From assembly GCA_016212185.1 (NCBI GenBank), contig JACRGX010000056.1:31240-95239 (forward strand): a stretch of DNA of 64,000 bases. The letters run 5' to 3'. The notes beneath the pieces are model-generated. The model did no database searches. It was not told the origin of the DNA and saw nothing but the letters and a program-made list of their open reading frames with translations. Below are positions 10,350-38,886 of the stretch, one piece after another (the stretch's first letter is position 1; each line of letters begins with the position of its first letter). Source of the stretch: Nitrospirota bacterium. GTDB lineage: Bacteria; Nitrospirota; Thermodesulfovibrionia; UBA6902; DSMQ01. The position numbers and the translations under genes were made by a program.

Positions 10350-10359
10350 CTCTATAAAT

Positions 10360-18788: not shown

Positions 18789-18813
18789 AAAACCCTTTTA
18801 ACAAAAATGAGGC

Positions 18814-20651: not shown

Positions 20652-20679
20652 ATATTATCAGCTTGTGCATGAATTATTA

Positions 20680-23798: not shown

Positions 23799-25015
23799 AA
23801 CCGCTGCGGAATATTTGAAGCCTTAGGCCATTTTTTCCCGTCTCTGTACCGGAATTCCCTTTCCTTTCCGTAAACATTATACTTGCGCTTAATCATATTT
23901 ATTGTCTCAAACAGCTCATCTTCTTCAACCGGCTTCAGCCCCGAAGCTCTGGCTTTAAACTGTAAGCGCACCCGTTCTCTGATAGTAGAAAATGATCTTG
24001 CGGAAAGGGTGATCTCCGGGAAACTTCCAAAATTACAGCCTGAACACTTATGTGTTATGCTTCTTACCTTCTCACGAAACTCCCGCGACTTAAAAATCTT
24101 CGGGAACTCAGGGTCAGACACGTATATGTCCTCCTTTAGTTTATAGTCACAGCATGGAGCAAACCGCCCGTCAGGCAGGATGACAAAATACAGATACGGG
24201 GAATCGCAGATCCCTTTATGCCGCCAGTCAGGACTGCCGGTGGTAATAAAATGATGCACTGAATCAAGGTAGTCGTCAGAATCAAACAGTTTAGCGCCCT
24301 CCCGTTTTTTCTTTTTCAGTCTTTCAATAAGCGCCCTGATTTTGGGAAAGTCTTTTTCATTAAAACTGAACAATTCATCATAACCCCTGAAATTCAGCGG
24401 AGCGTCAGGATTTGTGATATGTACCGGAACGAGGGACAGCCACCAGCCTATCTGTGTTGCAAAATCAAGCACTGCCTCTATTTCGTCAATATTATAACTT
24501 GACATAACACACCCCAGCGCACAGATGGAATCACTGCGGGGGAAGGTCCTTGATATAAATGATATTGTCCTGATTGCATTCCTCCATGACCCTTCTGCGC
24601 CGTTGATGTAGTCCGAGAGCCGCTCGTCCAGGGAATCCAGGCTCACATTAATATCCCTTGCGCCGTACTGGACGCATTTGCGGATTTTCTCCCTTTTTGA
24701 GTACAGCCCGGCAGTTTGAAGCCTTATGTCCAGCCCTCTTGATTTAAATATGCGAACTATTTCATCAATGTCGTCCCTTAAAAAAGGCTCCCCTCCGGTC
24801 AGCAAAACAACGCCTGCCCCTACCTTGACGAGATTATCGGCAATCATCCCAATATTTTCGGTTTTAAAAGGGTGGATATCGGCATTTGCCTCAACTATAT
24901 TGCACATCTTGCATTTCAGATAGCAGACGTTTGAAACATAGAACTGCACATAAAAAGGAGACCTTTTTGTCAGTAGCGCTTTTGCCATTGATAATTTAGT
25001 GCGGAAAGTAAACAT
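23771..25015 (-). CDS. radical SAM protein with SPASM-like C-terminal domain
   Basis: SNVCYLKCKMCNI CxxxCxxC; C-terminal APCCDYK...CSGCNFG cysteine clusters. Confidence 0.75.
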   Translation of the reverse strand: MFTFRTKLSMAKALLTKRSPFYVQFYVSNVCYLKCKMCNIVEANADIHPFKTENIGMIADNLVKVGAGVVLLTGGEPFLRDDIDEIVRIFKSRGLDIRLQTAGLYSKREKIRKCVQYGARDINVSLDSLDERLSDYINGAEGSWRNAIRTISFISRTFPRSDSICALGCVMSSYNIDEIEAVLDFATQIGWWLSLVPVHITNPDAPLNFRGYDELFSFNEKDFPKIRALIERLKKKKREGAKLFDSDDYLDSVHHFITTGSPDWRHKGICDSPYLYFVILPDGRFAPCCDYKLKEDIYVSDPEFPKIFKSREFREKVRSITHKCSGCNFGSFPEITLSARSFSTIRERVRLQFKARASGLKPVEEDELFETINMIKRKYNVYGKEREFRYRDGKKWPKASNIPQRLWNDRDGRE

Positions 25016-25017
25016 TT

Positions 25018-26427: not shown

Positions 26428-26432
26428 GATTT

Positions 26433-28898
26433 TTAATAAACGTTTTCTGTTTTTCTTTTCTCAAAAATCATAATAACGATAAAAATAATAAATCCGCAGG
26501 CTGAGATAACAGTCCATCCCCAATAATGCCTGAGGCTGTACTGAATCACAGCCTTTTCTGTCATATCAATGTCAACTATCCTGAACGGTCCGTTAGATAA
26601 TGGAAAATCAACACGCGATTTATTCTCCTTAACAACTTCCCATCTCCCTTCCGCGGGAATATTGGTCAGGGGAAAACTGATATTTCTGTGATATTCCAGA
26701 GGGTGGTTCATAAAAAGGGCGCCTCCCGTGCCTCTCAAATCAGGCGGCGCAGAGACCTCCCACCTGATATTGGAACTGCGTGAAAAATTCAATTTGCGTT
26801 TAAGCCTGTCTAAAACCAAAAAATCATAAACTGCTTTTTGGGAGCCTCTTGCTAATCCCTGAATAGTCTCTTTCAAAAACCTGCTGTCCGCCCCAGGGAA
26901 ATAAGTTATGTCAGGCCATGGTTCACCAAGCTCATACAGGCGCAGTCCACTGGTCTGTTTTATTTTCTTTGCCCCGATGTCATTTATTTCACGGTCTGTA
27001 AAAAGATATTTTACCCCAAGCGCCCTGAAGAGGCTTTTTGCAGAAATAACCATACTTGAATCTTTTTCAGATATCACTTTTTCAGAGCATATCCAGTTTA
27101 CCTCCATGAGATTTACGCCTTTTTTATTCAGTTCTTCAATATCATTAAGCGGCGCCCAGAAGCACCTCATCTCGGTAAAAATGCCTGTATCCGTAGGGCC
27201 GTCAAATGTGCTGAAACCCGCTAATGTAGCCTCATTGCGATACCACTGGTGTCCGGCAGAGCCGCAGTCTTCCAGGGTCAGCGCCTTATCCCTGTTTTTT
27301 ATTTCAATGCCGGAAAAAATCGGATGTCTTAAAACATCATATTTAGAAAGAAGGTCCGGCCTCTGAAACTGGTAAATTAAGAGGTAGCCGATTCCAATAA
27401 GAAGCACCAGCAGGAGCTGTGCCCTGGAAGTGTTCTTTGAAGAACTGCTGTAAACATTGAGGCGCCAGAAAGAAAAAAAAAAGATTGATATCAGTAATCC
27501 AAGTCCGGTAGTAAAAAACCGCTCCTCATGATTATGGATTAGCCCTGCGAATTCAGGCAGTTTGCCGGGCAATGCCCTCACTAACTCAGGTGAAAGCATC
27601 TGCAAAACAGAAACTGACCAGTAGACAGCATTTGCCAGGAGTACAACAGCAAGGACCAGCAATATAATTTTCATAAAATTCTTACCTGCTTTCTCCTTGT
27701 TGTTTTTAAAATATTCCGACAGCCATGCGATAAGAATAAAGCCAAACAGATTGGCAAAAAAAAGCATACGGAATAATGCATTATTAGAATATTTCATTCC
27801 CGGCATTACGCTGCGGAATATCGCCTGAAGACCCTCAAAACTCGTAATCAAAAAGGCGGCTACCCAGAAATATATCATCGCAATTATCCCTACAGGGAAA
27901 TTTTTCAATAAAGACAGATACAGCAGGATAGGGAGTATAAACAAAAAAGGGACATAAGCGTTATTGCCCAATCCAAAAACACTCAGCGAACTTATCACGG
28001 CATTCAAGTTGTTCCACGGCGCATAGCTTGAATAACTTGGGGCTACAGGCTCCCTGACAAGATAGCTCTCCAGAAGTATGGGCCCGAGGAAAAAAGAGCA
28101 AAAAAGAACTGCGGAGGAATAGCATGCAACGCCTCTTGCGATACGGCTGACCCTCTCCTTCCTTGGTATCGTGGAGTGCAAAACAAAGGCAACAGAAATC
28201 ACAACAAGGAATAAAGATATAAAAAGAAGTACTGAAAGAAAATTAGTGATAATTGAAAGGCTTAAAAAAATAAAAAGCAGGGACAAATAAAATGGGTTTC
28301 TGTGCTGCAGATATAAATAATATGCCAGAGTTATATATAACCCTGAATATAGGATTCCCGGTTGATGCGTATGAGCGTAAAAATGAAGTGACAGCGGAGT
28401 AAATAACCCGAATATCATAACCATAAACGTCCAGACAGGTGAAATTTGCAAAGTTCTGCACCAGAACAAAAACCCCAGCATCCCGTAATTCAGCAATAGA
28501 AATATCTGCACCCCCTTTGCAATATGGTCATCTGAAATGACAAGCCAGGGCAAATGGAAGGGAGAGAGGTAGCTGTATATCATTGAATCTTCCTGTGATA
28601 CCCCTCCAAAAGTCCTTTCGTTCCAGAATGGCAAATCACCTTTAAGAATGCTCTCTCTGTAAAACCTGAGAAATATGCGCTCCTGGTCAAAGAAGTCTCT
28701 CTGACCATACTGGTTGCGGAGCGTCATAGCCTCATGCACCTGCCCCGAAGATGCAAATGTGCCTGTGTACAAAACCTCTTTTGGGGCATAGGCGTACCTG
28801 CCTGAAAGATACGGCAATGCTGTCAGGATAATTATGATTTCAATCAATATGACAATTTTTACGAGTTCGCTGTTTTTATTGAACATTCTTAAGCTCAC
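26433..28898 (-). CDS. large polytopic membrane protein, YfhO/GT-C-like glycosyltransferase (putative)
   Basis: 821 aa; N-terminal about 450 aa multi-TM region plus soluble C-terminal domain, typical of GT-C enzymes. Confidence 0.4.
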   Translation of the reverse strand: MSLRMFNKNSELVKIVILIEIIIILTALPYLSGRYAYAPKEVLYTGTFASSGQVHEAMTLRNQYGQRDFFDQERIFLRFYRESILKGDLPFWNERTFGGVSQEDSMIYSYLSPFHLPWLVISDDHIAKGVQIFLLLNYGMLGFLFWCRTLQISPVWTFMVMIFGLFTPLSLHFYAHTHQPGILYSGLYITLAYYLYLQHRNPFYLSLLFIFLSLSIITNFLSVLLFISLFLVVISVAFVLHSTIPRKERVSRIARGVACYSSAVLFCSFFLGPILLESYLVREPVAPSYSSYAPWNNLNAVISSLSVFGLGNNAYVPFLFILPILLYLSLLKNFPVGIIAMIYFWVAAFLITSFEGLQAIFRSVMPGMKYSNNALFRMLFFANLFGFILIAWLSEYFKNNKEKAGKNFMKIILLVLAVVLLANAVYWSVSVLQMLSPELVRALPGKLPEFAGLIHNHEERFFTTGLGLLISIFFFSFWRLNVYSSSSKNTSRAQLLLVLLIGIGYLLIYQFQRPDLLSKYDVLRHPIFSGIEIKNRDKALTLEDCGSAGHQWYRNEATLAGFSTFDGPTDTGIFTEMRCFWAPLNDIEELNKKGVNLMEVNWICSEKVISEKDSSMVISAKSLFRALGVKYLFTDREINDIGAKKIKQTSGLRLYELGEPWPDITYFPGADSRFLKETIQGLARGSQKAVYDFLVLDRLKRKLNFSRSSNIRWEVSAPPDLRGTGGALFMNHPLEYHRNISFPLTNIPAEGRWEVVKENKSRVDFPLSNGPFRIVDIDMTEKAVIQYSLRHYWGWTVISACGFIIFIVIMIFEKRKTENVY

Positions 28899-28919
28899 TG
28901 CAGATAAATTCTGGAAACC

Positions 28920-29738
28920 CTATTTGCCGGCTTTAGCTCTGAGCCGCTCGTGTGCAATCCTCTGCTGAACACCGGCATTTATCGCCTTCAGTTCCGGATT
29001 TTCTGAAACCAGCTTTATGGCTTCAAGGGATGAAAACGCAGGATTACGATGATAAAGCATATTGTATATTCGGGACATCAACTCATAGTCTTCAGGCGTA
29101 TCAACTGTAAAGCGCAGTTCAGGATGTCTCCATTCAATGTATTTCCCTTCCGCCTGAAAATCACCGAGTTTATATTTGCCGTCTGTACGGTTATATATTC
29201 CGTAGGTTCCGTGCTCCCGGATTTTAATGTCTTTTATTTCCTCAGAAACATCAAGAATTATTCCCGCCCTGATGACCTGGACCGAGATGCCCGCAGGGAA
29301 TGTACGTTCAGCCATCCACTTATCCGAATGGTGCATATGCGTGCTGGCTGCATAATCATACCCCTTGCTGAAGAAAAAACTGACCATGTCGTCAATAAGC
29401 ACGGGGTCTATCAGCGGATTATCGCCGGTAAGGCTGACGACTACATCAGGGGTATATTTTTTTATTGCGCCTGCAAGCCTGTCCAGCACATCTTCCTCGC
29501 TTCCCCTGTAATAGTCTGTGCCGAGTTCTTCTGCAAGATGAACAAGGACGTCATCCCTTTTCTCCGTAGTAGTAGCCAAGACCACCCGGTCAATACTTCC
29601 GGCTCCGGCAGCCCTCTCAAAAACACGCTGAAGCATAGGGGCGCCTGCAAGCGGTTTTAATACTTTTCCGGGAAGGCGCGTAGAGCCCATCCGGGCTTCA
29701 ATGGTTGCTATTATTTTTTTTTGGACTGCCATCGGCAT
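28920..29738 (-). CDS. cytidylyltransferase (SpsF/PseF/acylneuraminate cytidylyltransferase family)
   Basis: KIIATIEARMGSTRLPGKVLKPLAGAPML N-terminal signature. Confidence 0.75.
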   Translation of the reverse strand: MPMAVQKKIIATIEARMGSTRLPGKVLKPLAGAPMLQRVFERAAGAGSIDRVVLATTTEKRDDVLVHLAEELGTDYYRGSEEDVLDRLAGAIKKYTPDVVVSLTGDNPLIDPVLIDDMVSFFFSKGYDYAASTHMHHSDKWMAERTFPAGISVQVIRAGIILDVSEEIKDIKIREHGTYGIYNRTDGKYKLGDFQAEGKYIEWRHPELRFTVDTPEDYELMSRIYNMLYHRNPAFSSLEAIKLVSENPELKAINAGVQQRIAHERLRAKAGK

Positions 29739-29783
29739 CAGGAATTGTTCTCAATGCCTTCCTGACATTGCATATTGGTGAGG

Positions 29784-30323
29784 TTATTTCTGCTTTTTTA
29801 TCACTGCTAAACGAACTACATCGGTAAAAAGACCGTTTCTCAGAAAATGATCCCTGAATATCCCTTCCTCAACAAAGCCTGCTTTCTTATATGCCCTGAT
29901 TGCGGCCTCATTATGGGCATTAACACCGAGACCTATCCTGTGAAGGTTCAGCTTATTAAATGCATGTGCCGCCAATAAATTTATCGCCTCGGTTCCATAG
30001 CCCTTTAATTGAGCATCTTTTTCACCTATCAAAATTGCCAGCTCGGCGCGCCTGTGAATCCAGTTTATCTCATGCAGACCGATATTCCCTATATGACGGT
30101 CGGTTGATTTTTCATGTATACAGAAAACCACGTCGTTTTTGTGTCCGCTGACGCGTTTATAAAAAACCCTCATCTTCTCCTTTGTATTCGGCCACATGGC
30201 GTGACTTGTATAGAGGTCATTGTCATGGTCGTTGAGCCACTGGAAGTATCTGTCATTATTCAGGTCAGACTCTTCAATCCCCCGGAGATAGACCTTATTG
30301 CCGATTAAAAAAGGATCCTTCAT
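29784..30323 (-). CDS. GNAT family N-acetyltransferase (RimL/PseH-like)
   Basis: 179 aa; NIGLHEINWIHRRAELAILIGEKDAQLKGYGTEA acetyl-CoA binding motif region. Confidence 0.75.
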   Translation of the reverse strand: MKDPFLIGNKVYLRGIEESDLNNDRYFQWLNDHDNDLYTSHAMWPNTKEKMRVFYKRVSGHKNDVVFCIHEKSTDRHIGNIGLHEINWIHRRAELAILIGEKDAQLKGYGTEAINLLAAHAFNKLNLHRIGLGVNAHNEAAIRAYKKAGFVEEGIFRDHFLRNGLFTDVVRLAVIKKQK

Positions 30324-30329
30324 AATTTT

Positions 30330-31703
30330 TTATACAGTCTCAATCCCTGTTCCGCCTTCAGCTACTTTTACGGGCGGCACTAATTCCAGGTCATCAAGAT
30401 AGTCAAGAAAATTTATAAGAAGCAGGTCATTATATCTTTTTGCTACAACCTGAAGGCCAAACGGGAGTCCTTTCGGTCCTGTAAATACCGGCACATTTAC
30501 AGCCGGGACATGGCATAAGGTCCAGATAGGACAATAATCTTTATCCCTCGCCTCTTCTACAGGCGCCTCTCCAAATGAGGACAGGCTTAGCAAAATGTCG
30601 TACTCTTCAAATACGCTGTCAAGCCTGTGAATCAGTGTCCTCTGCTCTTTCAATGCACTTGAATAATTATCAGGCGGATATGAAAACCCGAGTTTAATAT
30701 GATGCTTTAAAACATCACTCATTAACTCAGGCTGTCTGTAATATTCTTCTTTGAAATAATAGGCAAGGTCTGAATTATAGATATGAGAATGAATCGCATG
30801 GACATTTTCAAATCCTTCGGGAAGTCCGGCTTCTTCTATTAATATATTTTCATTTGCCAGTCGGCTGATAAAATCAATGAAGTCCTTCTTAGCATATTCA
30901 GAAACACCATTCCATATACTGCCTTTAACAATACCCACTTTCCAGAATTTTCTTCCTATATCCTTTAACAGTTTTTCTTCTTTGAGGGGATGGTCCCTGC
31001 CTCCTATTCTTGCGGAATCGAACAGCAGCTTAATGTCACGGACTGAACGCGTAAAAAACCCTACCTGGTCCAGAGTTTCCATTGTCTTAAGCACCCCTGT
31101 CCTCGGAATCATGCCAAAAGTGGGTTTCATGGCATATATACCGCAGTAGCTCGCCGGTCGTATCAAGGAGCCTGCTGTCTGTGTACCCAGAGCAACAGGA
31201 ACCATCAAGGATGCAACCGCTGCGGCAGAACCGCTTGAAGAAGTTCCGGGCGTGTGTTTGATATTGTGAGGGTTTCTTGTCGCCCCGGGAAAATGAACGG
31301 CAAATTCGGCAGTAACAGTTTTGCCCATGATTATCCCGTCATCCCACATCATCTGTTCTACAACCCTCGCGTCATTGCCGGCCTTATGCCCCTTCCATAT
31401 CGGACTCCCCATTTCAACAGGGAACCCCCTTGTATTAAATATGTCCTTAACGCCGATTGGAACCCCGCACAGTCTGCCGCAAACCTTACCGCGTGACAAA
31501 TTATTGTCCACTGCGGCGGTCTGTTCAAAGACATGCTCCTCATTAAGAAATTCCCATGCGCTGATTTTCCCCTCCAAACTTCTGATTCTTTCAAGATATG
31601 TCATGGCAACATCAGCGGCGGAAAGATTCCCGGACCGTATTTCTTTGACAATATCAGATGCCGTTTTAATTAATTTGATATTGACTACGCCTGAACTATT
31701 CAT
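30330..31703 (-). CDS. amidase signature family protein
   Basis: GTSSSGSAAAVASLMVPVALGTQTAGSLIRPAS amidase signature (GGSSGG-type). Confidence 0.8.
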   Translation of the reverse strand: MNSSGVVNIKLIKTASDIVKEIRSGNLSAADVAMTYLERIRSLEGKISAWEFLNEEHVFEQTAAVDNNLSRGKVCGRLCGVPIGVKDIFNTRGFPVEMGSPIWKGHKAGNDARVVEQMMWDDGIIMGKTVTAEFAVHFPGATRNPHNIKHTPGTSSSGSAAAVASLMVPVALGTQTAGSLIRPASYCGIYAMKPTFGMIPRTGVLKTMETLDQVGFFTRSVRDIKLLFDSARIGGRDHPLKEEKLLKDIGRKFWKVGIVKGSIWNGVSEYAKKDFIDFISRLANENILIEEAGLPEGFENVHAIHSHIYNSDLAYYFKEEYYRQPELMSDVLKHHIKLGFSYPPDNYSSALKEQRTLIHRLDSVFEEYDILLSLSSFGEAPVEEARDKDYCPIWTLCHVPAVNVPVFTGPKGLPFGLQVVAKRYNDLLLINFLDYLDDLELVPPVKVAEGGTGIETV

Positions 31704-31728
31704 CTAAAAACCGCCGTCTCTGGAGCTA

Positions 31729-32874
31729 TCAGGGCAAACGCCCTGCCGCTCCTTTTCTCTGTCCCTTTATTTCCTTTATTATCTCTGCTTCGCTGAGGCC
31801 TGTAATTTCCATATAATATTTCAGCGCTTCAGGTTTAAGTGAATCATATTTTTTTATCATTTCAAAGCCCTCTTCCTGCGTCAATATGCCGGCCCTGACG
31901 TCTCTGGTGGCATGGTCAGTGGTGCGTCCGAAGCCGCGTTTCAGATATTTTAAATAATCATGCACTCCTGCCATGTTACATTCTACGCTTTTATAACCTT
32001 TGTATGTACCTTCAACATCTCCCTCTCTCCAGCCATATTCCTTCTTTATAAAATCCACCTGCCGTTCATCATCCCAGAATATATAATCTCCAAGATGTAT
32101 TCCTTCAACCCCTGCCTTCCTCATCTCTTCAGCTGTGGGAAACATGAAAGGCCTCAATTCACTTCTTTTAATCTCATCACTTACCATTTGGTCAATGCCG
32201 ACTTTTGAAGATATCTTTTGAAAATATTCCGCGTCATATCTGACAGGGTTAAAGTATGTAGCCTTAGTGCCGTTTTCAGCCGCTGATTCACCCCAAATAA
32301 TAAGTTTTATGCCGAATTTTATGGCTACCTGCAGGGGAAATGCGCCAACCCCTGCGTGGCAGTGCCAGCAGGAGTCGCCTATTTTATAAAGCGACTGTTT
32401 TGCAAGGCGGTCTACAAGGCTTTTCTTGGGTGTGAACATTATATGGTCAATATCAAATTTTTCAAGACAGTTCTGCAAATTATATTTCCCTGTTTCAGAA
32501 AACCATGTATGGCTGAAAGTCACGGCAAGAGGACGCATTCCCAAAACTTTTGTAACAACATGAAGCTGGTATGTGCTGTCTTTACCGCCGCTGATAGGCA
32601 CAATACAGTGATAATTATCCCCTGCAATTTTTTTATTATGCTCCACTTTCTTAAGCAATTCGTTCCATCTGTCTTCCCAGTTTATCTTCATCTTCTGTTC
32701 CGAACTGTTACAACCCGAGCATATTCCTCTCTCATCAAAGGTTATACCCTCAACAGTCTCAGGCAGACAGCAGCGGACACAGTATTTCAACTGGGGGAAA
32801 GGGACTTCAAGCTCTCCTTTTTTTACGGCTTTTTCTGTTTTGATTTTATCAATTAATTTCATAATTGCCTCCAC
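31729..32874 (-). CDS. N-acetyl sugar amidotransferase (PP-loop ATPase; PseA/WbuX-like)
   Basis: N-terminal CxxC zinc ribbon plus IVPISGGKDSTYQ PP-loop (SGGKDS). Confidence 0.75.
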   Translation of the reverse strand: MEAIMKLIDKIKTEKAVKKGELEVPFPQLKYCVRCCLPETVEGITFDERGICSGCNSSEQKMKINWEDRWNELLKKVEHNKKIAGDNYHCIVPISGGKDSTYQLHVVTKVLGMRPLAVTFSHTWFSETGKYNLQNCLEKFDIDHIMFTPKKSLVDRLAKQSLYKIGDSCWHCHAGVGAFPLQVAIKFGIKLIIWGESAAENGTKATYFNPVRYDAEYFQKISSKVGIDQMVSDEIKRSELRPFMFPTAEEMRKAGVEGIHLGDYIFWDDERQVDFIKKEYGWREGDVEGTYKGYKSVECNMAGVHDYLKYLKRGFGRTTDHATRDVRAGILTQEEGFEMIKKYDSLKPEALKYYMEITGLSEAEIIKEIKGQRKGAAGRLP

Positions 32875-32900: not shown

Positions 32901-33935
32901 TTAGCTGCCTGCTTTATCAATATTATTGTACGTCAATGGCTCTTCGCTATCTATATCCTTTTGGGCGATAAATGAGCTGACAGTATCAAAATCTTCAAAA
33001 GAGACACTGTTTGCAGGTACCGGTCTTAACCAGATGACGTCTGCGGCAGTTATTTTTTGTCCTTTACGGATATTGTATTTAGCATATGCACTGCGGCGCA
33101 GGTTTGTCCTTCCGTATTCCTCAGAGGGCTGGATTTTTCTCGGATAATCTCCCATCATTTTCTCCAGCCGCCTGATGTCCCTGATAAAGTCTGACATCTC
33201 CTTAGGCTCAAGTGAAAGCGCACGGTCCCCCCCGGGAATAGACCGGTCAAGAATAAAATGCTTCTCAATTACAACCGCCCCAGTTGCCACTGCAGCAAGC
33301 GGGGCAAGGGTGTCAGCAGTATGGTCGGAATATCCCACCGGCAACCCGTATCTTTGATTATAAAAAGGTATCAGAGACAGACCTGTTTCATTATCAGGGA
33401 CAGGATACGCGCCGATACAGTGAAGCAGAATTGACCCTTTTTTCGGGAGCATTTCAGCAAGCCTGTCTACCTCCTCCTGCTTGCAAAATCCGGTTGATAC
33501 GAGAACCGGCTTGCCTTTTGAAATAACGTGCCTAAGCAAAGGCAGATTATTTGCATCTCCTGATGCAACTTTGAACGCCGGTACAATATCATCAAGAAAA
33601 TCAGCGCTCTTTTCGTCAAAAGGGGTGCATAAAAATACCATGCCAATAGATTCCGCCTTCTGCGCCAATTCCCGGAAGACTCCTCCGGGAAGAACCATAC
33701 TTTTAAATCTCTCCCTTTGTGTGCCGTGTGATTTATCAGGCACATGTTTAAGCACCGGCGCATCTTTGCTTACAAGGAGCTCCGGGTCAAAAAGCTGGAA
33801 TTTAACGGCATCCGCCCCGCTTGCAGCCGCAGCTTCAAGGGTTTTCATGGCAAGCTCGGCATCGCCCAAATGATTGTTTCCGATTTCGGCAATTATAAAT
33901 GTCTTTCTGCCAATTTCAAAATTACCTATTTTCAT
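32901..33935 (-). CDS. nonulosonic acid synthase (N-acetylneuraminate synthase family, NeuB/PseI/LegI-like)
   Basis: FIIAEIGNNHLGDAELAMKTLEAAAASGADAVKFQ hallmark; C-terminal SAF-like domain. Confidence 0.9.
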   Translation of the reverse strand: MKIGNFEIGRKTFIIAEIGNNHLGDAELAMKTLEAAAASGADAVKFQLFDPELLVSKDAPVLKHVPDKSHGTQRERFKSMVLPGGVFRELAQKAESIGMVFLCTPFDEKSADFLDDIVPAFKVASGDANNLPLLRHVISKGKPVLVSTGFCKQEEVDRLAEMLPKKGSILLHCIGAYPVPDNETGLSLIPFYNQRYGLPVGYSDHTADTLAPLAAVATGAVVIEKHFILDRSIPGGDRALSLEPKEMSDFIRDIRRLEKMMGDYPRKIQPSEEYGRTNLRRSAYAKYNIRKGQKITAADVIWLRPVPANSVSFEDFDTVSSFIAQKDIDSEEPLTYNNIDKAGS

Positions 33936-33965: not shown

Positions 33966-35384
33966 TTACTTTTCATAAAGGTACTTATCTTTCGGTACCC
34001 TGTCCAAATATCCCTCTTTCATGATTTGAGAAGCCAGCCATATTGAAAATTCATTATTTACTACTTCAATGCTTTCATTCTGCGACAGCTCAATAAAACC
34101 GATGGAATTCCCGAGCCAGTCTTTTCCAAGCAGATTTTTTGTCTTAACAATTCGTATGCCGCCGGTCTCCAAATATAGGGTATCGCTGTCTTCCTTCATT
34201 ATCTTTCTGTCATACCCGAATGGCACCAGTCCGCTTGGTCCTGGTCTCCAGTAAAAGTCATAATGCTCCATAACTGAGATCACTGAGTCATAATCATGTA
34301 TCAACATTGTATCAATAGCCTCGGTCAGATGATAAGATTTTATAAAAGGACAGTTTATTGAAATCGTTGCCATTATGTCAGGCATGCTATGCCCCCTTTT
34401 ATCCATCTCTCTGACAAAGTAGCTCACAACTTCACCCCTTGTTACAGTCGGGCTTGCTAATCCCTTTGGGTGCAGTCCCAGCGACTTTGCTCCGTATTTT
34501 ACGGCAATCTCCTCTACTTCCTCATCATCGGTCAATATATAAACATCCTGCATATATTCACATTCCATTAATGCATTAAGGGAATAATTTATGAGCGGCA
34601 TGCCATTTATATCTGCAAGTGCAATCTTAGGAATGCCCGATTTCTTAAGAAAAACTGATTCGCGAATCAATCCAATAACCTTCCTGTCTGCCCCAACTTT
34701 TTCTCTGACAAATTCGTGCTTGACATGCCTGCGCGCCATTGACCGTTTCTCTGAGTTTGTTGACATAGTTCCTTCATGTCTGCGGTAATACATAAGCGGC
34801 AGCCTTACATTATAGACATTGAACCTGTTGATAAAACGGAGCCAGAAGTCATAATCCTCCTGATATTTTAGTTCCTCATTATAACCGCCGATTTCGTCAT
34901 AGCACTGTTTCCTGTACATAGCCCCTGCGCCTAATGGAGCCCTGTCCAGGAGTTTGATCTCATCATTGCTCTTCATCAGCCTGTAATGCTCTATAATATT
35001 GCCGGAGTAGTCAACTTTAAAATAGTCCGAATAGACAAGGTGGACCTCTGGCTTAGAGTCCAGTATCCGGCTTTCAACCAATAAGGCATTTTCATCAAAG
35101 TAGTCATCGGCGTCCAGCCTTATGATGTATTGCCCCCTTGACTCCCTGATTGCAGCGTTGCATGCAGCAGCCAGCCCCACGCCTTTAAGTCTGACGACCC
35201 TGACTTTAGGATGTTTAGTATATTTTTCAAGAACTTCATCCGTATGGTCGGTGCTGCCGTCTTCAGCTATGATAAGTTCAAACTCCTGGCATGTCTGGTT
35301 TAGTACGCTATCTATTGCCTGCCCCAGAAACTTTGCATAATTATGCGCTGTCAGTATTACGCTTATTTTTGGTTTGTCACTCAT
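33966..35384 (-). CDS. bifunctional GT2 glycosyltransferase / cytidylyltransferase-like protein
   Basis: ISVILTAHNYAKFL...IIAEDGSTDHT (GT2) then C-terminal CMP-sugar synthetase-like domain. Confidence 0.55.
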   Translation of the reverse strand: MSDKPKISVILTAHNYAKFLGQAIDSVLNQTCQEFELIIAEDGSTDHTDEVLEKYTKHPKVRVVRLKGVGLAAACNAAIRESRGQYIIRLDADDYFDENALLVESRILDSKPEVHLVYSDYFKVDYSGNIIEHYRLMKSNDEIKLLDRAPLGAGAMYRKQCYDEIGGYNEELKYQEDYDFWLRFINRFNVYNVRLPLMYYRRHEGTMSTNSEKRSMARRHVKHEFVREKVGADRKVIGLIRESVFLKKSGIPKIALADINGMPLINYSLNALMECEYMQDVYILTDDEEVEEIAVKYGAKSLGLHPKGLASPTVTRGEVVSYFVREMDKRGHSMPDIMATISINCPFIKSYHLTEAIDTMLIHDYDSVISVMEHYDFYWRPGPSGLVPFGYDRKIMKEDSDTLYLETGGIRIVKTKNLLGKDWLGNSIGFIELSQNESIEVVNNEFSIWLASQIMKEGYLDRVPKDKYLYEK

Positions 35385-35394: not shown

Positions 35395-36393
35395 CTATTT
35401 ACTGTTCTTGAAATATTTAAATGTTTTTTTCAGCCCGGATTTCAGGTCATGTTCCGGTTCAAACCCAAGGATATTTTTTGCCTTTGAAATATCTGCAAAG
35501 TTTCTCTTTACATCACCGGGTCTCTGTTCTGAATAAATAATATTCACATCCCTGCCGGTTTCTTTCTTCACAATTTCCTTTATTGCCTCCGCAATCTCAT
35601 TTACCGTGGTCTCCTTATGCGTAGCGATCTGGAAGACCTCGCCTCCTATGTCAGCCTTCACAGAAAGCATAATAGCATTAATTAGGTCCTCAATAAATAT
35701 AAAATCCCTTGTCTGTTCCCCATTGCCGTAAATCTCAATGCGCTCCCCGGCAAGCGCATTTTTAAAGAATTTTGCCACCACACTGTTTTTATTTTTTGAC
35801 AGATGGCCGTAAACGTTGCTGAATCTGAGGGCTATTGTTTTCACGCCGAAGGTCCTGAAATAGGCTGAACAGTATGCCTCACCTGCAAGTTTGCTTGCAC
35901 CGTATGGTGATACCGGTCTTGGCGCCTTATCCTCATGAACAGGCGGAACAACATCACCCAGCGGGGCCCCGGAAGAGGCAAAAATAAACTTTTTTATGCC
36001 CTGCCGCCTTGATGCTTCCAGCATATTTAATGTTCCAATGACATTTGCCTCCATATCTGCCCTTGGATTTTCAACAGACTGCGGGACGCCCGTGCTTGCC
36101 GCAAGATGGACAACAACATCTACCGAACTGCAGCAACGAATGCAGGCCTCAGGGTTTCTGATGTCGCCGATGACGAGTTCAAGCCCTTCAGGGCGGCCTT
36201 TAAGTGACAATACATCTTTCTCTATAAAAGGTCCGGCTCCTGACAGTGCATCCCTGCTTCCTGAAGAAAGATTATCAAGTATTCTTATATTAACACCCGG
36301 GACTTCTTTCAGCAGTCTGTATATTAATGTGCTTCCTATAAATCCGCAGCCGCCGGTTATAAGCCATGACCGGGCATCTAAAAGTTCAGTCAA
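35395..36393 (-). CDS. NAD-dependent epimerase/dehydratase (UDP-sugar 4-epimerase/decarboxylase-like)
   Basis: ITGGCGFIGSTL, YGASK catalytic YxxxK. Confidence 0.8.
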   Translation of the reverse strand: MTELLDARSWLITGGCGFIGSTLIYRLLKEVPGVNIRILDNLSSGSRDALSGAGPFIEKDVLSLKGRPEGLELVIGDIRNPEACIRCCSSVDVVVHLAASTGVPQSVENPRADMEANVIGTLNMLEASRRQGIKKFIFASSGAPLGDVVPPVHEDKAPRPVSPYGASKLAGEAYCSAYFRTFGVKTIALRFSNVYGHLSKNKNSVVAKFFKNALAGERIEIYGNGEQTRDFIFIEDLINAIMLSVKADIGGEVFQIATHKETTVNEIAEAIKEIVKKETGRDVNIIYSEQRPGDVKRNFADISKAKNILGFEPEHDLKSGLKKTFKYFKNSK

Positions 36394-36405: not shown

Positions 36406-37596
36406 CTATTTACCATTAATGAAGTCGCACCTTACCCTCTTCCCGTCCCAGCGGATGTCAGGTATGAGAGCCTCTTTGCGCGCCTCTATTCTGTTTTTGT
36501 ACTTTATAAGGTCCTTTAACATAATGCCGATTTCATGCTCAATATCATGGGTTGGTTTATATCCAAGGTCAAGAAGGCGCTGATGGTCCGGTTTAAAATA
36601 ATGCTCTTCAAGCTCCTTCCTCGGATTAATCAGATTTCTGATCTGAACATCCAGCCCAAAACTATCGCCGACTTTTTTTACCTTCCCGGCGAGTTCAGTA
36701 ATGTCATAAACCTCCTCAAACTGGTTAAACACTCTGTACTCACCGGCTCCAGGAGGATTCTCAACAGTAATCGCCAAACATTGCATTGAGTCCCTCAAAG
36801 GGAGAAAACCCCTTTTCTGATGTCCCTTGCCATAAGGAGACAGAGGATGCCCTATTACCGCCTCACAGCAAAAACGGTTAATAGCCGTACCAAAGCTCTG
36901 GTCAAAATCCAGTCTGGTCAGCAAACGTTCGTCATCGCCCATCTCGTCAATACGCGTTCCGAATACCACACCCTGCATAATATCCGTTGAGCGCAGGTTC
37001 CATATTCTGCACGCCATCATAACATTGTTGCTGTCATGGACCTTGCTCTGATGATACCAGCTACCGGCCTGTTTTGGAAAAGGCAGGTAATCCTTCCTAC
37101 CCCTGAACTCTACTTCAAAGAATCCCTCGGGAATATCAATTTTAGGCGTCCCATATTCTCCCATGGTCCCCAGTTTAACCAGATGGGACTCAGGACATAT
37201 GTCACGCATGGCATAAAGTATATTAAGGGTCCCAACAATATTATTTACCTGTGTCCATGTGGCGTGTTCAACGTCAATCATGCTGTATGGAGCAGACGGC
37301 ATCTCCCCAAGATGTACTATTGCCTCCGGTTTAAAATGCCTGAAAATATTCTCAATAAAATTATATTCCGTAAGGTTCCCCTTGAAAAACCTTAGGTTCT
37401 TTCCGAAGTTCTCGCGAAAAGCCTCAAGCCTCTCCGTCATTTTACATATAGGGGTTGCAGACTGAGACCCCATCTCTTGTACCCAGTCCCTTCTTAAATA
37501 ATTATCCGCTCCAGAAACCTCATGCCCCCTTTTAGTCAAATACATTGCAAGCGCCCAGCCCAGATAACCGTCAATTCCAGCGATAAAGACTCTCAA
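36406..37596 (-). CDS. UDP-sulfoquinovose synthase homologue (SQD1/SqdB/Agl3-like)
   Basis: Long colinear similarity to plant SQD1 recalled from memory: IAGIDGYLGWA, SAPYSMID, VKLGTMGEYGTP, PKQAGSWYHQSKVHD, DQSFGTAINRFC, GHPLSPYGKGHQKRGFL, FRVFNQFEE. Confidence 0.75.
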   Translation of the reverse strand: MRVFIAGIDGYLGWALAMYLTKRGHEVSGADNYLRRDWVQEMGSQSATPICKMTERLEAFRENFGKNLRFFKGNLTEYNFIENIFRHFKPEAIVHLGEMPSAPYSMIDVEHATWTQVNNIVGTLNILYAMRDICPESHLVKLGTMGEYGTPKIDIPEGFFEVEFRGRKDYLPFPKQAGSWYHQSKVHDSNNVMMACRIWNLRSTDIMQGVVFGTRIDEMGDDERLLTRLDFDQSFGTAINRFCCEAVIGHPLSPYGKGHQKRGFLPLRDSMQCLAITVENPPGAGEYRVFNQFEEVYDITELAGKVKKVGDSFGLDVQIRNLINPRKELEEHYFKPDHQRLLDLGYKPTHDIEHEIGIMLKDLIKYKNRIEARKEALIPDIRWDGKRVRCDFINGK

Positions 37597-37759
37597 ATCA
37601 TCTCCCCCTTTAATTATAATTTATACATATATATTTGCCTTTTTGAAGACTGCTCCGCCCTTTCAGTCACATCTAAGCAACCGGCAGAGTTAAGAGTTAA
37701 AAGTTAATTTTTTCTTTTTTGCACTATAACTCTTAACTTATAACTTTCAACTTTTAACT
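37597..37759 (-). promoter_or_regulatory. leader between NusG paralog and first biosynthetic gene with repeated AACT(T/C)TTAACT motifs, T-tract and inverted repeat
   Basis: gagttaagagttaaaagttaattttttctttttt ... aactcttaacttataactttcaacttttaacttta; position matches where NusG-paralog-dependent antitermination leaders occur. Confidence 0.35.
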
Positions 37760-38281
37760 TTATACTCTCTCAACATTAGCCGCTTCTATCTTTACCGCCA
37801 CTCCCTGACGGAGAATATCAACCGAAAGCACCAGCATATGCTGTCCCAGTTTTTCAACGAGTATTCCCTCAACACCGCTCAGGGAGCCGTATTTAATCCT
37901 TACCCTTTGCCCTTCTTGCAGATATGGATAAGGGTCCAGCGTTTCCTTGCTTTCAATAAGTTTTTTAAGCGATATTATTTGTTCGTCAGGGATAGGCTCA
38001 GGCTCTCCGCGTCCTGCGCCGAGGAGCCGCACCACTCCCTTAATCCGGACCACATTTAATATATCCTGCGACCTTTTTGTTGTATAAACAAATATGTACC
38101 CCGGGAACAGGGGAAATGTAACTGCTTTTTTCCTGTCCTTCCATTTTCTGAGCCGCTCCACTGCAGGCAGAAAAGCCTCAATGCCTTTCATTTTAAGCCT
38201 GTCATACACCTGAAATTCATGACGGGACCTTGTATGGACCGCATACCAGTTCTGTTCTGCATTTGCCGTTAGTTCCATCAT
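37760..38281 (-). CDS. NusG-paralog transcription antiterminator (UpxY/LoaP/RfaH-like)
   Basis: NGN domain WYAVHTRSRHEF..LPGYIFV plus C-terminal KOW (GQRVRIKYGSLSGVEGILVEK). Confidence 0.8.
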   Translation of the reverse strand: MMELTANAEQNWYAVHTRSRHEFQVYDRLKMKGIEAFLPAVERLRKWKDRKKAVTFPLFPGYIFVYTTKRSQDILNVVRIKGVVRLLGAGRGEPEPIPDEQIISLKKLIESKETLDPYPYLQEGQRVRIKYGSLSGVEGILVEKLGQHMLVLSVDILRQGVAVKIEAANVERV

Positions 38282-38886
38282 CCCTCTTTAGAAAGCAAAA
38301 ATAATTTTTTTGTATCTGCACCCATATCCATAGCCCTCTGCCTTTCGTTTTCCTTGTCTTTTAAGGATGTAATCAAAATGGCGTCATAATTTAAGCCGGC
38401 TAAATCCTGCGGGGCATAAATGTTATGCCCGAAAAAACCGTTGTCCGCCCTTTTATTGTCAATTATTCCAATCAGATTAAGCGGCAAGCCCCGCAGGGAA
38501 ACATAACATAATTCCGCAACTTCCCCGTCGCCCCATAACAGGAGGTTTTTTGCCCCTGATGAAATCATCTGTTTATAGACATTGTCTATTCTCTGGCGGA
38601 TGTCCTTGAAATAACTCAGGGAGAAATGCATATATTCATAGGTCAATCTTACCTTCTCTGTAAAACCTTTGGGGGTAAGGATATATTTGACCCTGTTTTG
38701 CGGGATAGTGGTAACCTTTATATACCCTTTTTTAGCCAGCCGCTTCATGTAGGCATTCACAAGCCCAAGGGCAACATCAAGCTTGCCCGATAGAGAGCGC
38801 TGTGTGACATGAGGCTCTTTGCTTAATTCGTCAAGGATTCTTAGTGTAATATCATCATCATGCCTGTCAGTCTTAAGCTTGTTCAT
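38278..38886 (-). CDS. Rex-like winged-helix transcriptional regulator with C-terminal Rossmann/CoA-binding-type domain
   Basis: N-term wHTH RLAKKGYIKV resembles Rex ALGKKGYGY; C-term LLLWGDGEVA...LIGIIDNKRADNGFFGHNIYAP...DAILITS parallels Rex NADH-binding domain layout. Overlaps nusG-paralog start by 4 nt. Confidence 0.45.
   Translation of the reverse strand: MNKLKTDRHDDDITLRILDELSKEPHVTQRSLSGKLDVALGLVNAYMKRLAKKGYIKVTTIPQNRVKYILTPKGFTEKVRLTYEYMHFSLSYFKDIRQRIDNVYKQMISSGAKNLLLWGDGEVAELCYVSLRGLPLNLIGIIDNKRADNGFFGHNIYAPQDLAGLNYDAILITSLKDKENERQRAMDMGADTKKLFLLSKEG

What the first reader, a model, noticed from the sequence alone, without database searches (positions are those of the whole stretch)
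36406..37596. UDP-sulfoquinovose synthase (SQD1) homologue inside a bacterial nonulosonic-acid cluster
The 396-aa ORF is colinear with plant and cyanobacterial SQD1 and archaeal Agl3 over nearly its whole length (motifs listed in the feature). SQD1 adds sulfite to UDP-glucose to give UDP-6-sulfoquinovose. Here it sits between a 4-epimerase-like gene and the NusG paralogue, with no sqdX-type lipid glycosyltransferase visible. This suggests a sulfonated sugar in a glycan rather than in a sulfolipid. The Ldh_2-family dehydrogenase at 7590-8666 belongs to the family that includes sulfolactate dehydrogenase, which could hint at sulfonate metabolism.
Basis: partly seen in the sequence, partly recalled or inferred. 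Interest (0 to 1): 0.7.

Follow-up and report, generated by a model that had tools for sequence, protein, structure and literature searches.

The report
Sulfo-sugar synthase gene heading a bacterial glycan operon
A bacterium from the Nitrospirae group carries a close relative of the plant and archaeal enzyme that makes the sulfonated sugar sulfoquinovose, placed as the first gene of a 37-kb cell-surface sugar operon rather than next to a lipid-making gene, so the sulfo-sugar (or a close derivative) probably decorates a surface glycan, something reported so far for archaea but, in the literature I could search, not for bacteria.

Summary
ORF 36406-37596 (minus strand, 396 aa) belongs to the SQD1/SqdB/Agl3 family. 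It is 46% identical to Arabidopsis SQD1 over 382 residues with one gap (424 bits; next PDB family 29 bits), and the model matches SQD1 at TM 0.91-0.93. The TMG...YHxxK signature and His95, Met145, Glu147 and Tyr148 are present. One exception: Arg101, essential in Agl3, is Pro here and throughout its bacterial subfamily. Relatives 66-84% identical occur in many non-phototrophic phyla. Seven of 81 loci have a PAPS-reductase gene beside them, one also ATP sulfurylase, which supports sulfite use. In the window the gene follows a UpxY-family NusG paralogue and opens a co-directional array of 30 genes (NeuB-type synthase, cytidylyltransferases, GT2s, Wzx, radical-SAM enzymes). No GT4/SqdX-type transferase occurs in any frame. 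The adjacent 4-epimerase-like SDR is a conserved partner, and the linkage holds in both directions, which suggests UDP-sulfoquinovose is modified further, possibly to UDP-sulfofucose. The Ldh_2 "sulfonate" hint is not supported. Verdict: a probable UDP-sulfoquinovose-type synthase feeding a bacterial surface glycan. The enzyme kind is known, the context is new, and the biochemistry is untested.

The parts
36406..37596 (-). SQD1/SqdB/Agl3-family SDR (probable UDP-sulfoquinovose synthase, Pro-101 subtype), 396 aa, TTG start
35395..36393 (-). Extended-SDR, UDP-hexose 4-epimerase-like (ASSgA..G / SPYGASK, no dehydratase acid/base pair). Conserved partner of SQD-family genes; 12-nt gap to the synthase gene
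33966..35384 (-). GT2 glycosyltransferase fused to a partial cytidylyltransferase domain. Candidate transferase for the sulfo-sugar; the same SQD-SDR-GT2 trio occurs in L015 (60% id) and an orthologue is nearby in L069 (49% id)
37597..37759 (-). 163-nt leader between the NusG paralogue and the synthase. Contains a promoter-like site (37750-37723, TTGAAA-16-TATAGT) overlapped by AGTTAAR heptamer direct and inverted repeats (37686-37768), and an SD before the TTG
   Evidence: no Rfam match; fold z = -1.2
37760..38281 (-). UpxY-family NusG paralogue (processive antiterminator of polysaccharide operons)
   Evidence: NF033644, 139.8 bits against cut-off 100
38278..38886 (-). MarR/HTH_24 regulator, nearest the EPS-associated MarR family (70.6 bits against cut-off 88). 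Overlaps the NusG paralogue by 4 nt; promoter-like site at 38924-38896
32901..33935 (-). NeuB-family nonulosonic-acid synthase (below both the NeuB and PseI equivalog cut-offs)
18814..19758 (-). PgfS/ArnC-like GT2 (polyprenyl-phosphate sugar transferase type)
11172..12518 (-). Wzx-type flippase (Polysacc_synt)
673..32874 (-). Rest of the co-directional glycan array: WbuX amidotransferase, amidase, GNAT, three free and one more fused cytidylyltransferase, two B12-radical-SAM and two radical-SAM/SPASM enzymes, three methyltransferases, DegT, two GFO oxidoreductases, YhcH-like, Ldh_2, and five proteins without Pfam hits. May continue past the left end of the window

Best explanation
The ORF encodes an NAD+-containing extended SDR of the SQD1/SqdB/Agl3 family that makes a UDP-6-deoxy-6-sulfohexose. 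By the established family mechanism, bound NAD+ oxidises C4 of UDP-glucose. Water is then eliminated across C5-C6 to give the 4-keto-5,6-ene. Sulfite adds to C6, and the C4 ketone is reduced back, giving UDP-sulfoquinovose. Here the gene is the first structural gene of a roughly 37-kb operon. That operon is driven from a promoter in the 163-nt leader and kept processive by the UpxY-type NusG paralogue encoded just upstream. The sulfo-sugar nucleotide is handed to the co-conserved 4-epimerase-like SDR next door, which may or may not change it. It is then transferred by a GT2 enzyme, most likely the GT2 fusion immediately downstream, into a nonulosonic-acid-containing cell-surface glycan that is exported through a Wzx-type route. 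Shown: family membership, fold, motifs, gene order, and the conserved linkage to the SDR and (in relatives) to sulfite-supplying genes. Inferred: sulfite addition by this Pro-101 subtype, UDP-glucose as substrate, which GT transfers the sugar, and glycan rather than lipid as the acceptor.
For: Family and fold. Signature [ST]MG...Yx3K (PMC8987622) is present as T144-M145-G146 ... Y181-H182-x-x-K185. The Agl3-essential or important residues His95, Met145, Glu147, Tyr148, Tyr182 and Lys186 (PMC4388408) are all conserved. The protein is 46% identical to SQD1, whereas the two validated enzymes SQD1 and Agl3 are about 40% identical to each other. Sulfite use in the subfamily: a PAPS-reductase gene lies within two genes of the synthase in 7 of 81 loci. 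In L035 the order is PAPS reductase, ATP sulfurylase, synthase, GT2. Glycan context: 30 co-directional genes with mostly <50-nt gaps behind a UpxY-family antiterminator. No GT4 is present in any frame. Relatives are embedded among GT2, Wzx, DegT, NeuB and Wzz genes in Desulfobacterota, Chloroflexota, Planctomycetota, Acidobacteriota and others. Partner SDR: an orthologue of at least 43% id is in 30 of 81 loci and directly adjacent in 19. Reciprocally, 10 of 13 informative metagenome loci found with the SDR carry an SQD-family gene within two genes.
Against: Arg101 (EQRSAP in SQD1 and Agl3; R101A is inactive in Agl3) is Pro here (GEMPSAP). I could not tie any experimentally validated synthase to the Pro-101 type. 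The NCBIfam equivalog cut-off is missed by 8 bits. No sulfite-generating gene and no UDP-glucose-supplying gene lies in the window. Only 64 kb of the genome was seen, so an sqdX, SQD2 or sqdD gene elsewhere is possible. Some relatives sit beside GT21/GT2-type enzymes that could be lipid glycosyltransferases. No bacterial sulfoquinovose-containing glycan turned up in the literature searched, so there is no chemical precedent in bacteria.
Confidence: 0.6

Rival explanations
1. It is a genuine UDP-sulfoquinovose synthase, but the product goes into a membrane glycolipid (SQDG or another sulfoquinovosyl lipid). The transferase would be encoded elsewhere in the genome, or would be one of the GT2-type enzymes acting on a lipid acceptor. 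On this reading the position in the glycan operon reflects shared regulation only.
For: SQDG synthesis is the classical role of the family. sqdB and sqdX are unlinked in some cyanobacteria (PMC13436972). In related loci the synthase is flanked by GT21/GT2 enzymes of the kind that make glycolipids (L077, cluster 4), and in L075 a GT4 lies two genes away. Only 64 kb of the genome is visible.
Against: No GT4 is present in the window. The gene is separated by 12 nt from the next gene of a 30-gene glycan array behind a dedicated antiterminator. The conserved partner is a nucleotide-sugar SDR, not a lipid enzyme. The organism and most relatives are non-phototrophs.
Confidence: 0.15
2. The Pro-101 subfamily has drifted from sulfite addition. 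It would act only as a UDP-hexose 5,6-dehydratase (as Agl3 does without sulfite) or would add another nucleophile. Together with the adjacent SDR it would form a Pen/Pal-like two-enzyme route to a 4-keto-6-deoxy sugar, for example for the nonulosonic-acid pathway, which otherwise lacks an obvious 4,6-dehydratase in this window.
For: Arg101 is essential in Agl3 and is replaced by Pro. Agl3 makes UDP-glucose-5,6-ene without sulfite, and Pen/Pal in Bacillus thuringiensis is a 5,6-dehydratase plus SDR pair feeding pseudaminic acid (PMC8987622). No PseB/LegB equivalog was found in the window. Pal (6bwl) is among the PDB matches of the partner SDR.
Against: Position 101 is the only systematic difference between the R-type and P-type sequences. 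P-type genes sit next to PAPS reductase and ATP sulfurylase, which has no rationale without sulfite. The SQD-SDR pair occurs mostly in loci without NeuB: NeuB is in about 6 of 81 loci and the SDR in 30. The SDR is much closer to 4-epimerases (198 bits) than to Pal (124 bits). Pen has a [ST]DK motif, not TMG.
Confidence: 0.12
3. The sulfo-sugar nucleotide is itself the precursor of a sulfonated nonulosonic acid. A UDP-6-sulfohexose would be hydrolysed and 2-epimerised, condensed with PEP by the NeuB-type synthase, and CMP-activated, giving a 9-deoxy-9-sulfo nonulosonic acid.
For: Compact cassettes of synthase + NeuB + Epimerase_2 + cytidylyltransferase occur in L023, L026 (two synthase copies) and L067, where PAPS reductase and the synthase sit between Epimerase_2 and the cytidylyltransferase. 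In the window the synthase lies two genes upstream of NeuB.
Against: The window has no Epimerase_2 homologue. The NeuB proteins linked to the synthase are only 28-42% identical to one another, so no single co-inherited pathway is evident. Nonulosonic-acid genes are common in glycan loci anyway. There is no chemical precedent.
Confidence: 0.05

Closest known systems
Arabidopsis SQD1 / bacterial SqdB (UDP-sulfoquinovose synthase of sulfolipid SQDG biosynthesis; PDB 1qrr, 1i24)
   Same: Same fold, length and insertions (TM 0.91-0.93), 46% identity. Shared GxxGxxG, TMG, YHxxK, His95 and Glu147/Tyr148. Presumably the same oxidation, 5,6-dehydration, sulfite addition and reduction chemistry.
   Different: Arg101 is Pro. 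There is no SqdX/SQD2 (GT4) or SqdD/SqdC partner in the window. The gene is embedded in a glycan operon in a non-phototroph, and it has a conserved 4-epimerase-like SDR partner that the sulfolipid pathway lacks.
Sulfolobus acidocaldarius Agl3 (UDP-sulfoquinovose synthase for the S-layer, archaellin and cytochrome N-glycan)
   Same: Closest in logic: a UDP-sulfoquinovose synthase that serves glycan rather than lipid synthesis. The residues tested by mutagenesis in Agl3 are conserved, except Arg101.
   Different: Agl3 is archaeal, works in a dolichol-linked N-glycosylation pathway, and carries Arg101. Here the setting is a bacterial Wzx-type polysaccharide or glycoconjugate operon with nonulosonic-acid genes and a UpxY antiterminator.
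Bacteroides-type UpxY-regulated capsular polysaccharide loci
   Same: A NusG paralogue of the UpxY family (above the NCBIfam cut-off) lies at the head of a long one-strand polysaccharide operon.
   Different: The host is a Nitrospirae MAG. A MarR-type gene precedes the UpxY-like gene, and no UpxZ was identified. Sulfo-sugar synthases are not a described feature of those loci, as far as I know.
Thermoplasma acidophilum N-glycan with 6-C-sulfofucose (chemistry known, genes unknown)
   Same: A synthase followed by a C4 epimerase is the simplest route to UDP-sulfofucose. The paper states that no biosynthetic pathway for sulfofucose is known (PMC12421959).
   Different: No link to Thermoplasma was found. 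Both SDR-linked synthase subclades are bacterial, and epimerase activity on UDP-sulfoquinovose is untested.
Pen/Pal (Bacillus thuringiensis) and TunA UDP-GlcNAc 5,6-dehydratases
   Same: SDR enzymes that stop at the 5,6-ene, followed by a second SDR.
   Different: They carry different active-site motifs ([ST]DK or TCE rather than TMG) and have no similarity beyond the general SDR level. The subfamily here is linked to sulfite-supplying genes.

Membership tests
SQD1/SqdB/Agl3 UDP-sulfoquinovose synthases | Full-length colinearity and fold of SQD1, including the insertions absent from GalE and RmlB | tested here: met
   Query 2-385 aligns to chain 3-384 at 424 bits. TM 0.91-0.93 to 1qrr/1i24, against 0.69 or less for other SDRs.
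SQD1/SqdB/Agl3 UDP-sulfoquinovose synthases | GxxGxxG NAD-binding motif and catalytic Thr145/Tyr182/Lys186, with the family-specific [ST]MG...Yx3K signature and His183 | tested here: met
   G7/G10/G13, T144-M145-G146 and Y181-H182-x-x-K185 (window numbering is SQD1 numbering minus 1). These are invariant in a 33-sequence alignment. Signature taken from PMC8987622.
SQD1/SqdB/Agl3 UDP-sulfoquinovose synthases | Residues whose Ala replacement inactivates or cripples Agl3: His95, Met145, Glu147, Tyr148, Tyr182, Lys186 | tested here: met
   All are conserved.
SQD1/SqdB/Agl3 UDP-sulfoquinovose synthases | Arg101 (EQRSAP), essential in Agl3 and conserved in SQD1 | tested here: not met
   Pro here (GEMPSAP). 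The position is Pro in 151 and Arg in 9 of 164 aligned family sequences, and it is the only systematic R-type versus P-type difference. Its role in SQD1 could not be looked up, because the paper is not held.
SQD1/SqdB/Agl3 UDP-sulfoquinovose synthases | Score above the curated NCBIfam equivalog cut-off (NF041015) | tested here: not met
   567 bits against a 575-bit cut-off, aligned end to end. This probably explains the generic public name 'NAD-dependent epimerase/dehydratase family protein'.
SQD1/SqdB/Agl3 UDP-sulfoquinovose synthases | Sulfite-dependent conversion of UDP-glucose to UDP-sulfoquinovose | not testable with these tools
   Indirect support only: PAPS reductase adjacent in 7 of 81 related loci and ATP sulfurylase in L035. 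None lies in the window.
SQDG sulfolipid pathway (sqdB-sqdX / SQD1-SQD2 / sqdBDC) | A GT4 (SqdX/SQD2) or SqdD-type sulfoquinovosyltransferase linked to the synthase | tested here: not met
   No Glycos_transf_1 or GT4 hit in any scanned ORF. Six-frame tblastn with three GT4 probes gave best E > 1. The rest of the genome was not seen.
Agl3-like use of sulfoquinovose in a glycan | Synthase gene embedded in a glycan-assembly cluster with glycosyltransferases and a flippase | tested here: met
   A 30-gene one-strand array with four GT2 domains, Wzx, NeuB and cytidylyltransferases. Similar contexts occur in relatives.
Agl3-like use of sulfoquinovose in a glycan | Sulfoquinovose chemically present in the glycan | not testable with these tools
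   Needs monosaccharide analysis or MS of the glycan.
UpxY-family NusG paralogues | Score above the NF033644 cut-off and position at the head of a polysaccharide operon | tested here: met
   139.8 bits against cut-off 100, with RfaH, LoaP and NusG models below their cut-offs. The gene lies directly upstream of the array.
L-sulfolactate dehydrogenase (for the Ldh_2 gene at 7590-8666) | Score above the NF040650 cut-off, or a sulfonate-metabolism context | tested here: not met
   197 bits against cut-off 500. The AllD model scores higher (228 bits). Neighbours are a YhcH-like protein and a GFO oxidoreductase.

The most novel reading that the evidence does not exclude
The synthase and the neighbouring 4-epimerase-like SDR form a dedicated two-gene module, conserved across at least six bacterial phyla and two divergent synthase subclades. 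The module would make UDP-6-deoxy-6-sulfo-D-galactose (UDP-sulfofucose) from UDP-glucose and sulfite. This would be the first biosynthetic route proposed for sulfofucose. It would also imply that sulfonated hexoses are widespread, overlooked components of bacterial surface glycans in anaerobic and sediment lineages such as Nitrospirota, Desulfobacterota, anammox Planctomycetota and Anaerolineae.
Probability: 0.3. Interest if true: 0.75.

Novelty: new variant of a known kind. Interest (0 to 1): 0.55.

Why it matters
[quoted passage not shown] It is treated almost entirely as a product of phototroph sulfolipid synthesis, with archaeal N-glycans as the only glycan exception. If this operon and its many relatives put a C-sulfonated hexose into bacterial surface glycans, there would be a second, non-phototrophic source of sulfo-sugars in anoxic sediments, groundwater and wastewater communities. 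That would bear on sulfoglycolysis and on sulfur cycling. It would also give these bacteria a permanently anionic, phosphate-free surface group. The conserved synthase-epimerase pair is a concrete, cheaply testable candidate for sulfofucose biosynthesis, which was explicitly stated to be unknown in 2025. On the practical side, the protein and many relatives carry only a generic public name because they fall just below an equivalog cut-off.

Tried and rejected
(1) Role of Arg101 in the SQD1 crystal structure: the primary paper (PMC23906) is not held, so the meaning of the Arg-to-Pro change stays open.

(2) Anchoring the Pro-101 type to a genetically validated cyanobacterial SqdB. I used the 'Stigonema' MAG homologue L077 as a bridge. 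Its nearest relatives are Chloroflexi, Anaerolineae and Gemmatimonadetes MAGs, with no named cyanobacteria. The contig is probably mis-binned or horizontally acquired, so no anchor was obtained.

(3) Linking the SDR-coupled synthases to Thermoplasma, the known sulfofucose producer. The second synthase subclade turned out to be bacterial: Jettenia, Nitrospirota and Deltaproteobacteria.

(4) The Ldh_2 'sulfonate metabolism' hint is rejected.

(5) A riboswitch or known RNA element in the leader: no Rfam match at E <= 1, and the predicted fold is not better than shuffles (z = -1.2).

(6) A sulfonated nonulosonic acid: kept only as a low-probability rival. The window lacks a hydrolysing 2-epimerase, and the linked NeuB proteins are not co-inherited.

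(7) Two analysis slips, both corrected. An identity filter of >45% hid the second synthase subclade next to the SDR (fixed). A tblastn run with default filtering returned nothing and was repeated without SEG.

(8) My early estimate of about 55% identity to SQD1 was wrong. The measured value is 46%.
Full report
THE OBSERVATION. The window has an intact ORF at exactly 36406-37596, on the minus strand: 396 codons with a TTG start. A strong ribosome-binding site (AAGGGGGAG) sits just upstream. A sequence search of all PDB chains returns Arabidopsis SQD1 (1qrr, 1i24, 1i2b) at E = 5e-126 and 424 bits, covering residues 2-385. The next family, CDP-tyvelose 2-epimerase, scores 29 bits. Identity to SQD1 is 46% over 382 residues with a single gap. 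The NCBIfam equivalog model for UDP-sulfoquinovose synthase (NF041015) aligns end to end at 567 bits, just under its 575-bit cut-off, and the next model scores 34 bits. An AlphaFold2 model (pLDDT 83, pTM 0.86) superposes on the SQD1 crystal structures at TM 0.91-0.93. GalE, RmlB and other SDRs reach TMq 0.69 at most. An identical protein is public under the generic name 'NAD-dependent epimerase/dehydratase family protein [Nitrospirae bacterium]', on a 133-kb MAG contig.

ACTIVE SITE. The family signature that separates UDP-sulfoquinovose synthases from 4,6-dehydratases and epimerases is [ST]MG...Yx3K (PMC8987622). It is present as T144-M145-G146 and Y181-H182-Q-S-K185. In Sulfolobus Agl3, alanine replacement of His95, Arg101, Met145, Tyr182 or Lys186 abolishes activity, and replacement of Glu147 or Tyr148 reduces it to 12-15% (PMC4388408). 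All of these are conserved here except one. The Arg of EQRSAP (Arg101 in both SQD1 and Agl3) is Pro (GEMPSAP). This is not a lesion in this gene. Pro is found in all 120 closest database proteins, in all the related genomic loci where the motif could be read, and in 151 of 164 aligned family sequences, against Arg in 9. It is the only position that systematically separates the two types. I could not read the SQD1 structure paper. I also could not connect the Pro type to any experimentally validated enzyme. This remains the main caveat on activity.

DISTRIBUTION. More than 8000 proteins match at E < 1e-20. A scan of one genome per species returned 80 loci that are 66-84% identical. They come from Desulfobacterota, Thermodesulfobacteriota, Chloroflexota (Anaerolineae, Chloroflexaceae, Dehalococcoidia), Planctomycetota (including Brocadiaceae), Acidobacteriota, Actinomycetota, Gemmatimonadota, Omnitrophota and others. 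Nearly all are MAGs.

NEIGHBOURS OF THE RELATIVES. I called ORFs in these loci and clustered the neighbours, then named the clusters with Pfam. Three results matter.
- Sulfite supply. A PAPS-reductase (CysH-type) gene lies within two genes of the synthase in seven loci. In L035 the order is PAPS reductase, ATP sulfurylase, synthase, GT2, a self-contained sulfate-to-sulfo-sugar cassette. This is the best available evidence that Pro-101 enzymes use sulfite.
- Glycoconjugate context. The commonest neighbours are glycoconjugate genes: a DUF2304-GT2 fusion (20 loci, 10 directly downstream), a membrane GT2 (9 loci), DegT aminotransferases (13), Wzx flippases, NeuB, B12-radical-SAM enzymes and Wzz. 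GT4 enzymes of the SqdX/SQD2 family are rare neighbours.
- A conserved SDR partner. An orthologue of the window's 4-epimerase-like SDR (at least 43% identity) is present in 30 of 81 loci and directly adjacent in 19.

THE SDR PARTNER. The protein at 35395-36393 has ASSgA..G and SPYGASK motifs and no dehydratase acid/base pair. Its best solved relatives are UDP-hexose 4-epimerases: Thermotoga TM0509 at 198 bits, then WbpP and WbgU. Pal scores 124 bits. The linkage also holds in the reverse direction. I searched metagenome contigs with the SDR. Of 13 informative loci at 57% identity or more, 10 carry an SQD-family gene within two genes. Eight of those synthases belong to a second, divergent subclade (381-382 aa, HYAEQPSAP / GTMGEYG / YHTTK, 43-47% identical to the window protein). 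That subclade occurs in Ca. Jettenia, Nitrospirota and Deltaproteobacteria, where a further SDR often precedes it. An SDR that stays next to the synthase across two subclades and many phyla is unlikely to be a mere UDP-glucose supplier. The simplest reading is that it acts on the synthase's product. A C4 epimerase acting on UDP-sulfoquinovose would give UDP-sulfofucose. Sulfofucose is known from a Thermoplasma N-glycan and from Fucaceae lipids, and its biosynthesis is stated to be unknown (PMC12421959). This is an inference from gene linkage and family resemblance only.

THE WINDOW'S CONTEXT. From 38886 down to 673, 32 ORFs lie on the minus strand, mostly with gaps under 50 nt or with overlaps. 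In order they are:
- a MarR-type regulator near the EPS-associated family;
- a NusG paralogue that passes the UpxY-family cut-off (139.8 against 100);
- a 163-nt leader, then the synthase, the SDR and a GT2 fused to a partial cytidylyltransferase domain;
- a NeuB-type synthase, a WbuX amidotransferase, an amidase, a GNAT and a cytidylyltransferase;
- an 821-aa unknown, then two B12-radical-SAM and two SPASM radical-SAM enzymes and an SDR-SDR fusion;
- three methyltransferases, a PgfS/ArnC-like GT2, two GFO oxidoreductases and DegT;
- Wzx, a YhcH-like protein, Ldh_2, another cytidylyltransferase, a second GT2-cytidylyltransferase fusion, and further unknowns.

The leader holds a promoter-like site (TTGAAA-16-TATAGT at 37750-37723). 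The site is overlapped by AGTTAAR heptamer direct and inverted repeats, which could be an operator. No Rfam element matches and no unusually stable fold is predicted. The flanks are housekeeping genes, including a BamD-like lipoprotein, so the organism is diderm. No GT4 domain is found by Pfam or by six-frame tblastn. No PAPS reductase and no Epimerase_2 is present either. The same synthase-SDR-GT2 trio recurs in a Planctomycetia MAG (L015, GT2 60% identical), and an orthologous GT2 fusion lies near the pair in an Omnitrophota MAG (L069, 49%). This makes the GT2 fusion the best candidate transferase.

MOST LIKELY MECHANISM. The enzyme probably works as SQD1 and Agl3 do. Tightly bound NAD+ oxidises C4 of UDP-glucose. 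Water is lost across C5-C6. Sulfite adds to C6 of the enone, and the ketone is reduced (established for the family). The product, perhaps after epimerisation by the partner SDR, is built into a nonulosonic-acid-containing surface glycan whose operon is read through by the UpxY-type factor. I put about 0.97 on family membership, about 0.75-0.8 on sulfite addition to a UDP-hexose, and about 0.7-0.75 on a glycan destination given that. This gives roughly 0.6 for the whole statement.

RIVALS.
- A sulfolipid destination through a transferase elsewhere or a GT2/GT21-type lipid transferase (0.15). Some relatives do sit beside GT21-like enzymes.
- A functionally shifted Pro-101 enzyme acting as a 5,6-dehydratase in a Pen/Pal-like pair (0.12). 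The CysH/Sat linkage argues against it, as does the fact that the pair is mostly found without NeuB.
- A sulfonated nonulosonic acid (0.05). It is suggested by compact synthase-NeuB-Epimerase_2-cytidylyltransferase cassettes in L023, L026 and L067 but has no support in the window.

COMPARISON WITH WHAT IS KNOWN. The protein is a member of a known enzyme family, and JGI's automatic annotation already names close relatives 'UDP-sulfoquinovose synthase'. What is not described, in the library I could search, is a bacterial glycan containing sulfoquinovose. No paper combines sulfoquinovose with nonulosonic acids. Searches pairing sulfoquinovose or UDP-sulfoquinovose with O-antigen, polysaccharide, exopolysaccharide, lipopolysaccharide or glycosylation gene clusters returned only archaeal, algal, plant or catabolic work. 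A 2026 review of bacterial sulfoquinovose cycling has no occurrence of 'glycoprotein', 'S-layer' or 'polysaccharide' in its main text. The library is incomplete, so this is absence of evidence. The closest precedent in logic is archaeal Agl3. I therefore rate the finding a new variant of a known kind: known chemistry, a new host group and destination, a new conserved partner, and a subfamily-wide change at a residue thought essential.

THE Ldh_2 SIDE REMARK. It is not supported. The protein at 7590-8666 reaches no equivalog cut-off (ureidoglycolate dehydrogenase 228/496, sulfolactate dehydrogenase 197/500, 3-dehydro-L-gulonate 2-dehydrogenase 150/316). It sits with a YhcH/N-acetylneuraminate-anomerase-like protein and a GFO oxidoreductase. 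That arrangement recalls, from my own knowledge, the yiaK-yiaL and nan-operon pairings in E. coli. It points to keto-sugar-acid chemistry rather than sulfonate metabolism.

Noticed in passing
window 37686-37768: A run of AGTTAAR/AACTTWW heptamers forms direct repeats (14-nt spacing) and several 12-20-nt inverted repeats. They overlap the promoter-like site in the leader between the UpxY-like gene and the synthase. This could be an operator for the MarR-type regulator encoded two genes upstream.
   Followed up: partly
L085-L091, L094, L100, L148 (Ca. Jettenia), L149 (Nitrospirae): A second SQD-family subclade (381-382 aa, YHTTK, 43-47% id to the window protein) sits in a three-SDR cassette. The order is a Polysacc_synt_2-type SDR (353-379 aa), the synthase, then, in the metagenome loci, the 4-epimerase-like SDR. 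In Jettenia the cassette lies in a Wza/Wzc/ABC/Wzx/Wzy polysaccharide locus.
   Followed up: partly
L035:1426-5338: PAPS reductase, ATP sulfurylase, SQD-family synthase and a DUF2304-GT2 lie in a row in a Bipolaricaulota MAG. This is a self-contained sulfate-to-sulfo-sugar-to-transfer cassette.
   Followed up: partly
L023:2738-7013, L026:3399-10037, L067:8026-11966: Compact cassettes join the synthase (two copies in L026) with NeuB, a hydrolysing-type UDP-sugar 2-epimerase (Epimerase_2) and a cytidylyltransferase. In L067 PAPS reductase and the synthase sit between the 2-epimerase and the cytidylyltransferase. This raises the idea of a sulfonated nonulosonic acid.
   Followed up: partly
window 33966-35384 and 5201-6574: Two paralogous fusion proteins join an N-terminal GT2 glycosyltransferase to a partial CTP_transf_3/PseF-like cytidylyltransferase domain. 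Counting these, the array carries five cytidylyltransferase domains.
   Followed up: no
window 20680-26427 and 2301-3218: The glycan array is unusually rich in radical-SAM enzymes. There are two B12-binding radical-SAM proteins (HpnJ/P-methyltransferase-like) and two SPASM-domain radical-SAM proteins, plus an SDR-SDR fusion and three SAM methyltransferases. This implies heavy C-methylation or other radical tailoring of the sugars.
   Followed up: no
window 673-2304, 3279-5189, 12548-14632, 14632-15678, 26433-28898: Five proteins of 348-821 aa inside the glycan array have no Pfam match, and none has an NCBIfam match where tested. They are candidates for a polymerase, ligase or novel transferases.
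   Followed up: no
window 36406-37596 (public record): The identical public protein is named only 'NAD-dependent epimerase/dehydratase family protein'. The likely reason is that it scores 567 bits against a 575-bit equivalog cut-off. Many close relatives share that generic name, while JGI calls others UDP-sulfoquinovose synthase.
   Followed up: yes
window 45873-47882: LarC-like nickel-insertion protein (PF01969, 493 bits) lies next to a LarB/AIR-carboxylase-like protein. These are genes of the nickel-pincer cofactor pathway. A zeta-toxin/AAA_33-like kinase at 45251-45850 lies beside them.
   Followed up: no
window 48981-52209: Two adjacent class-I Glu/Gln-tRNA synthetase paralogues lie on the same strand: 559 aa with GlnRS-type C-terminal domains, and 492 aa with a GluRS-type anticodon domain.
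   Followed up: no
L077 ('uncultured Stigonema sp.' MAG contig): The synthase is flanked by two copies of a 386-aa GT21/GT2-type transferase. Its nearest relatives are Chloroflexi and Anaerolineae MAG proteins rather than cyanobacterial ones, so the contig may be mis-binned or horizontally acquired.
   Followed up: partly
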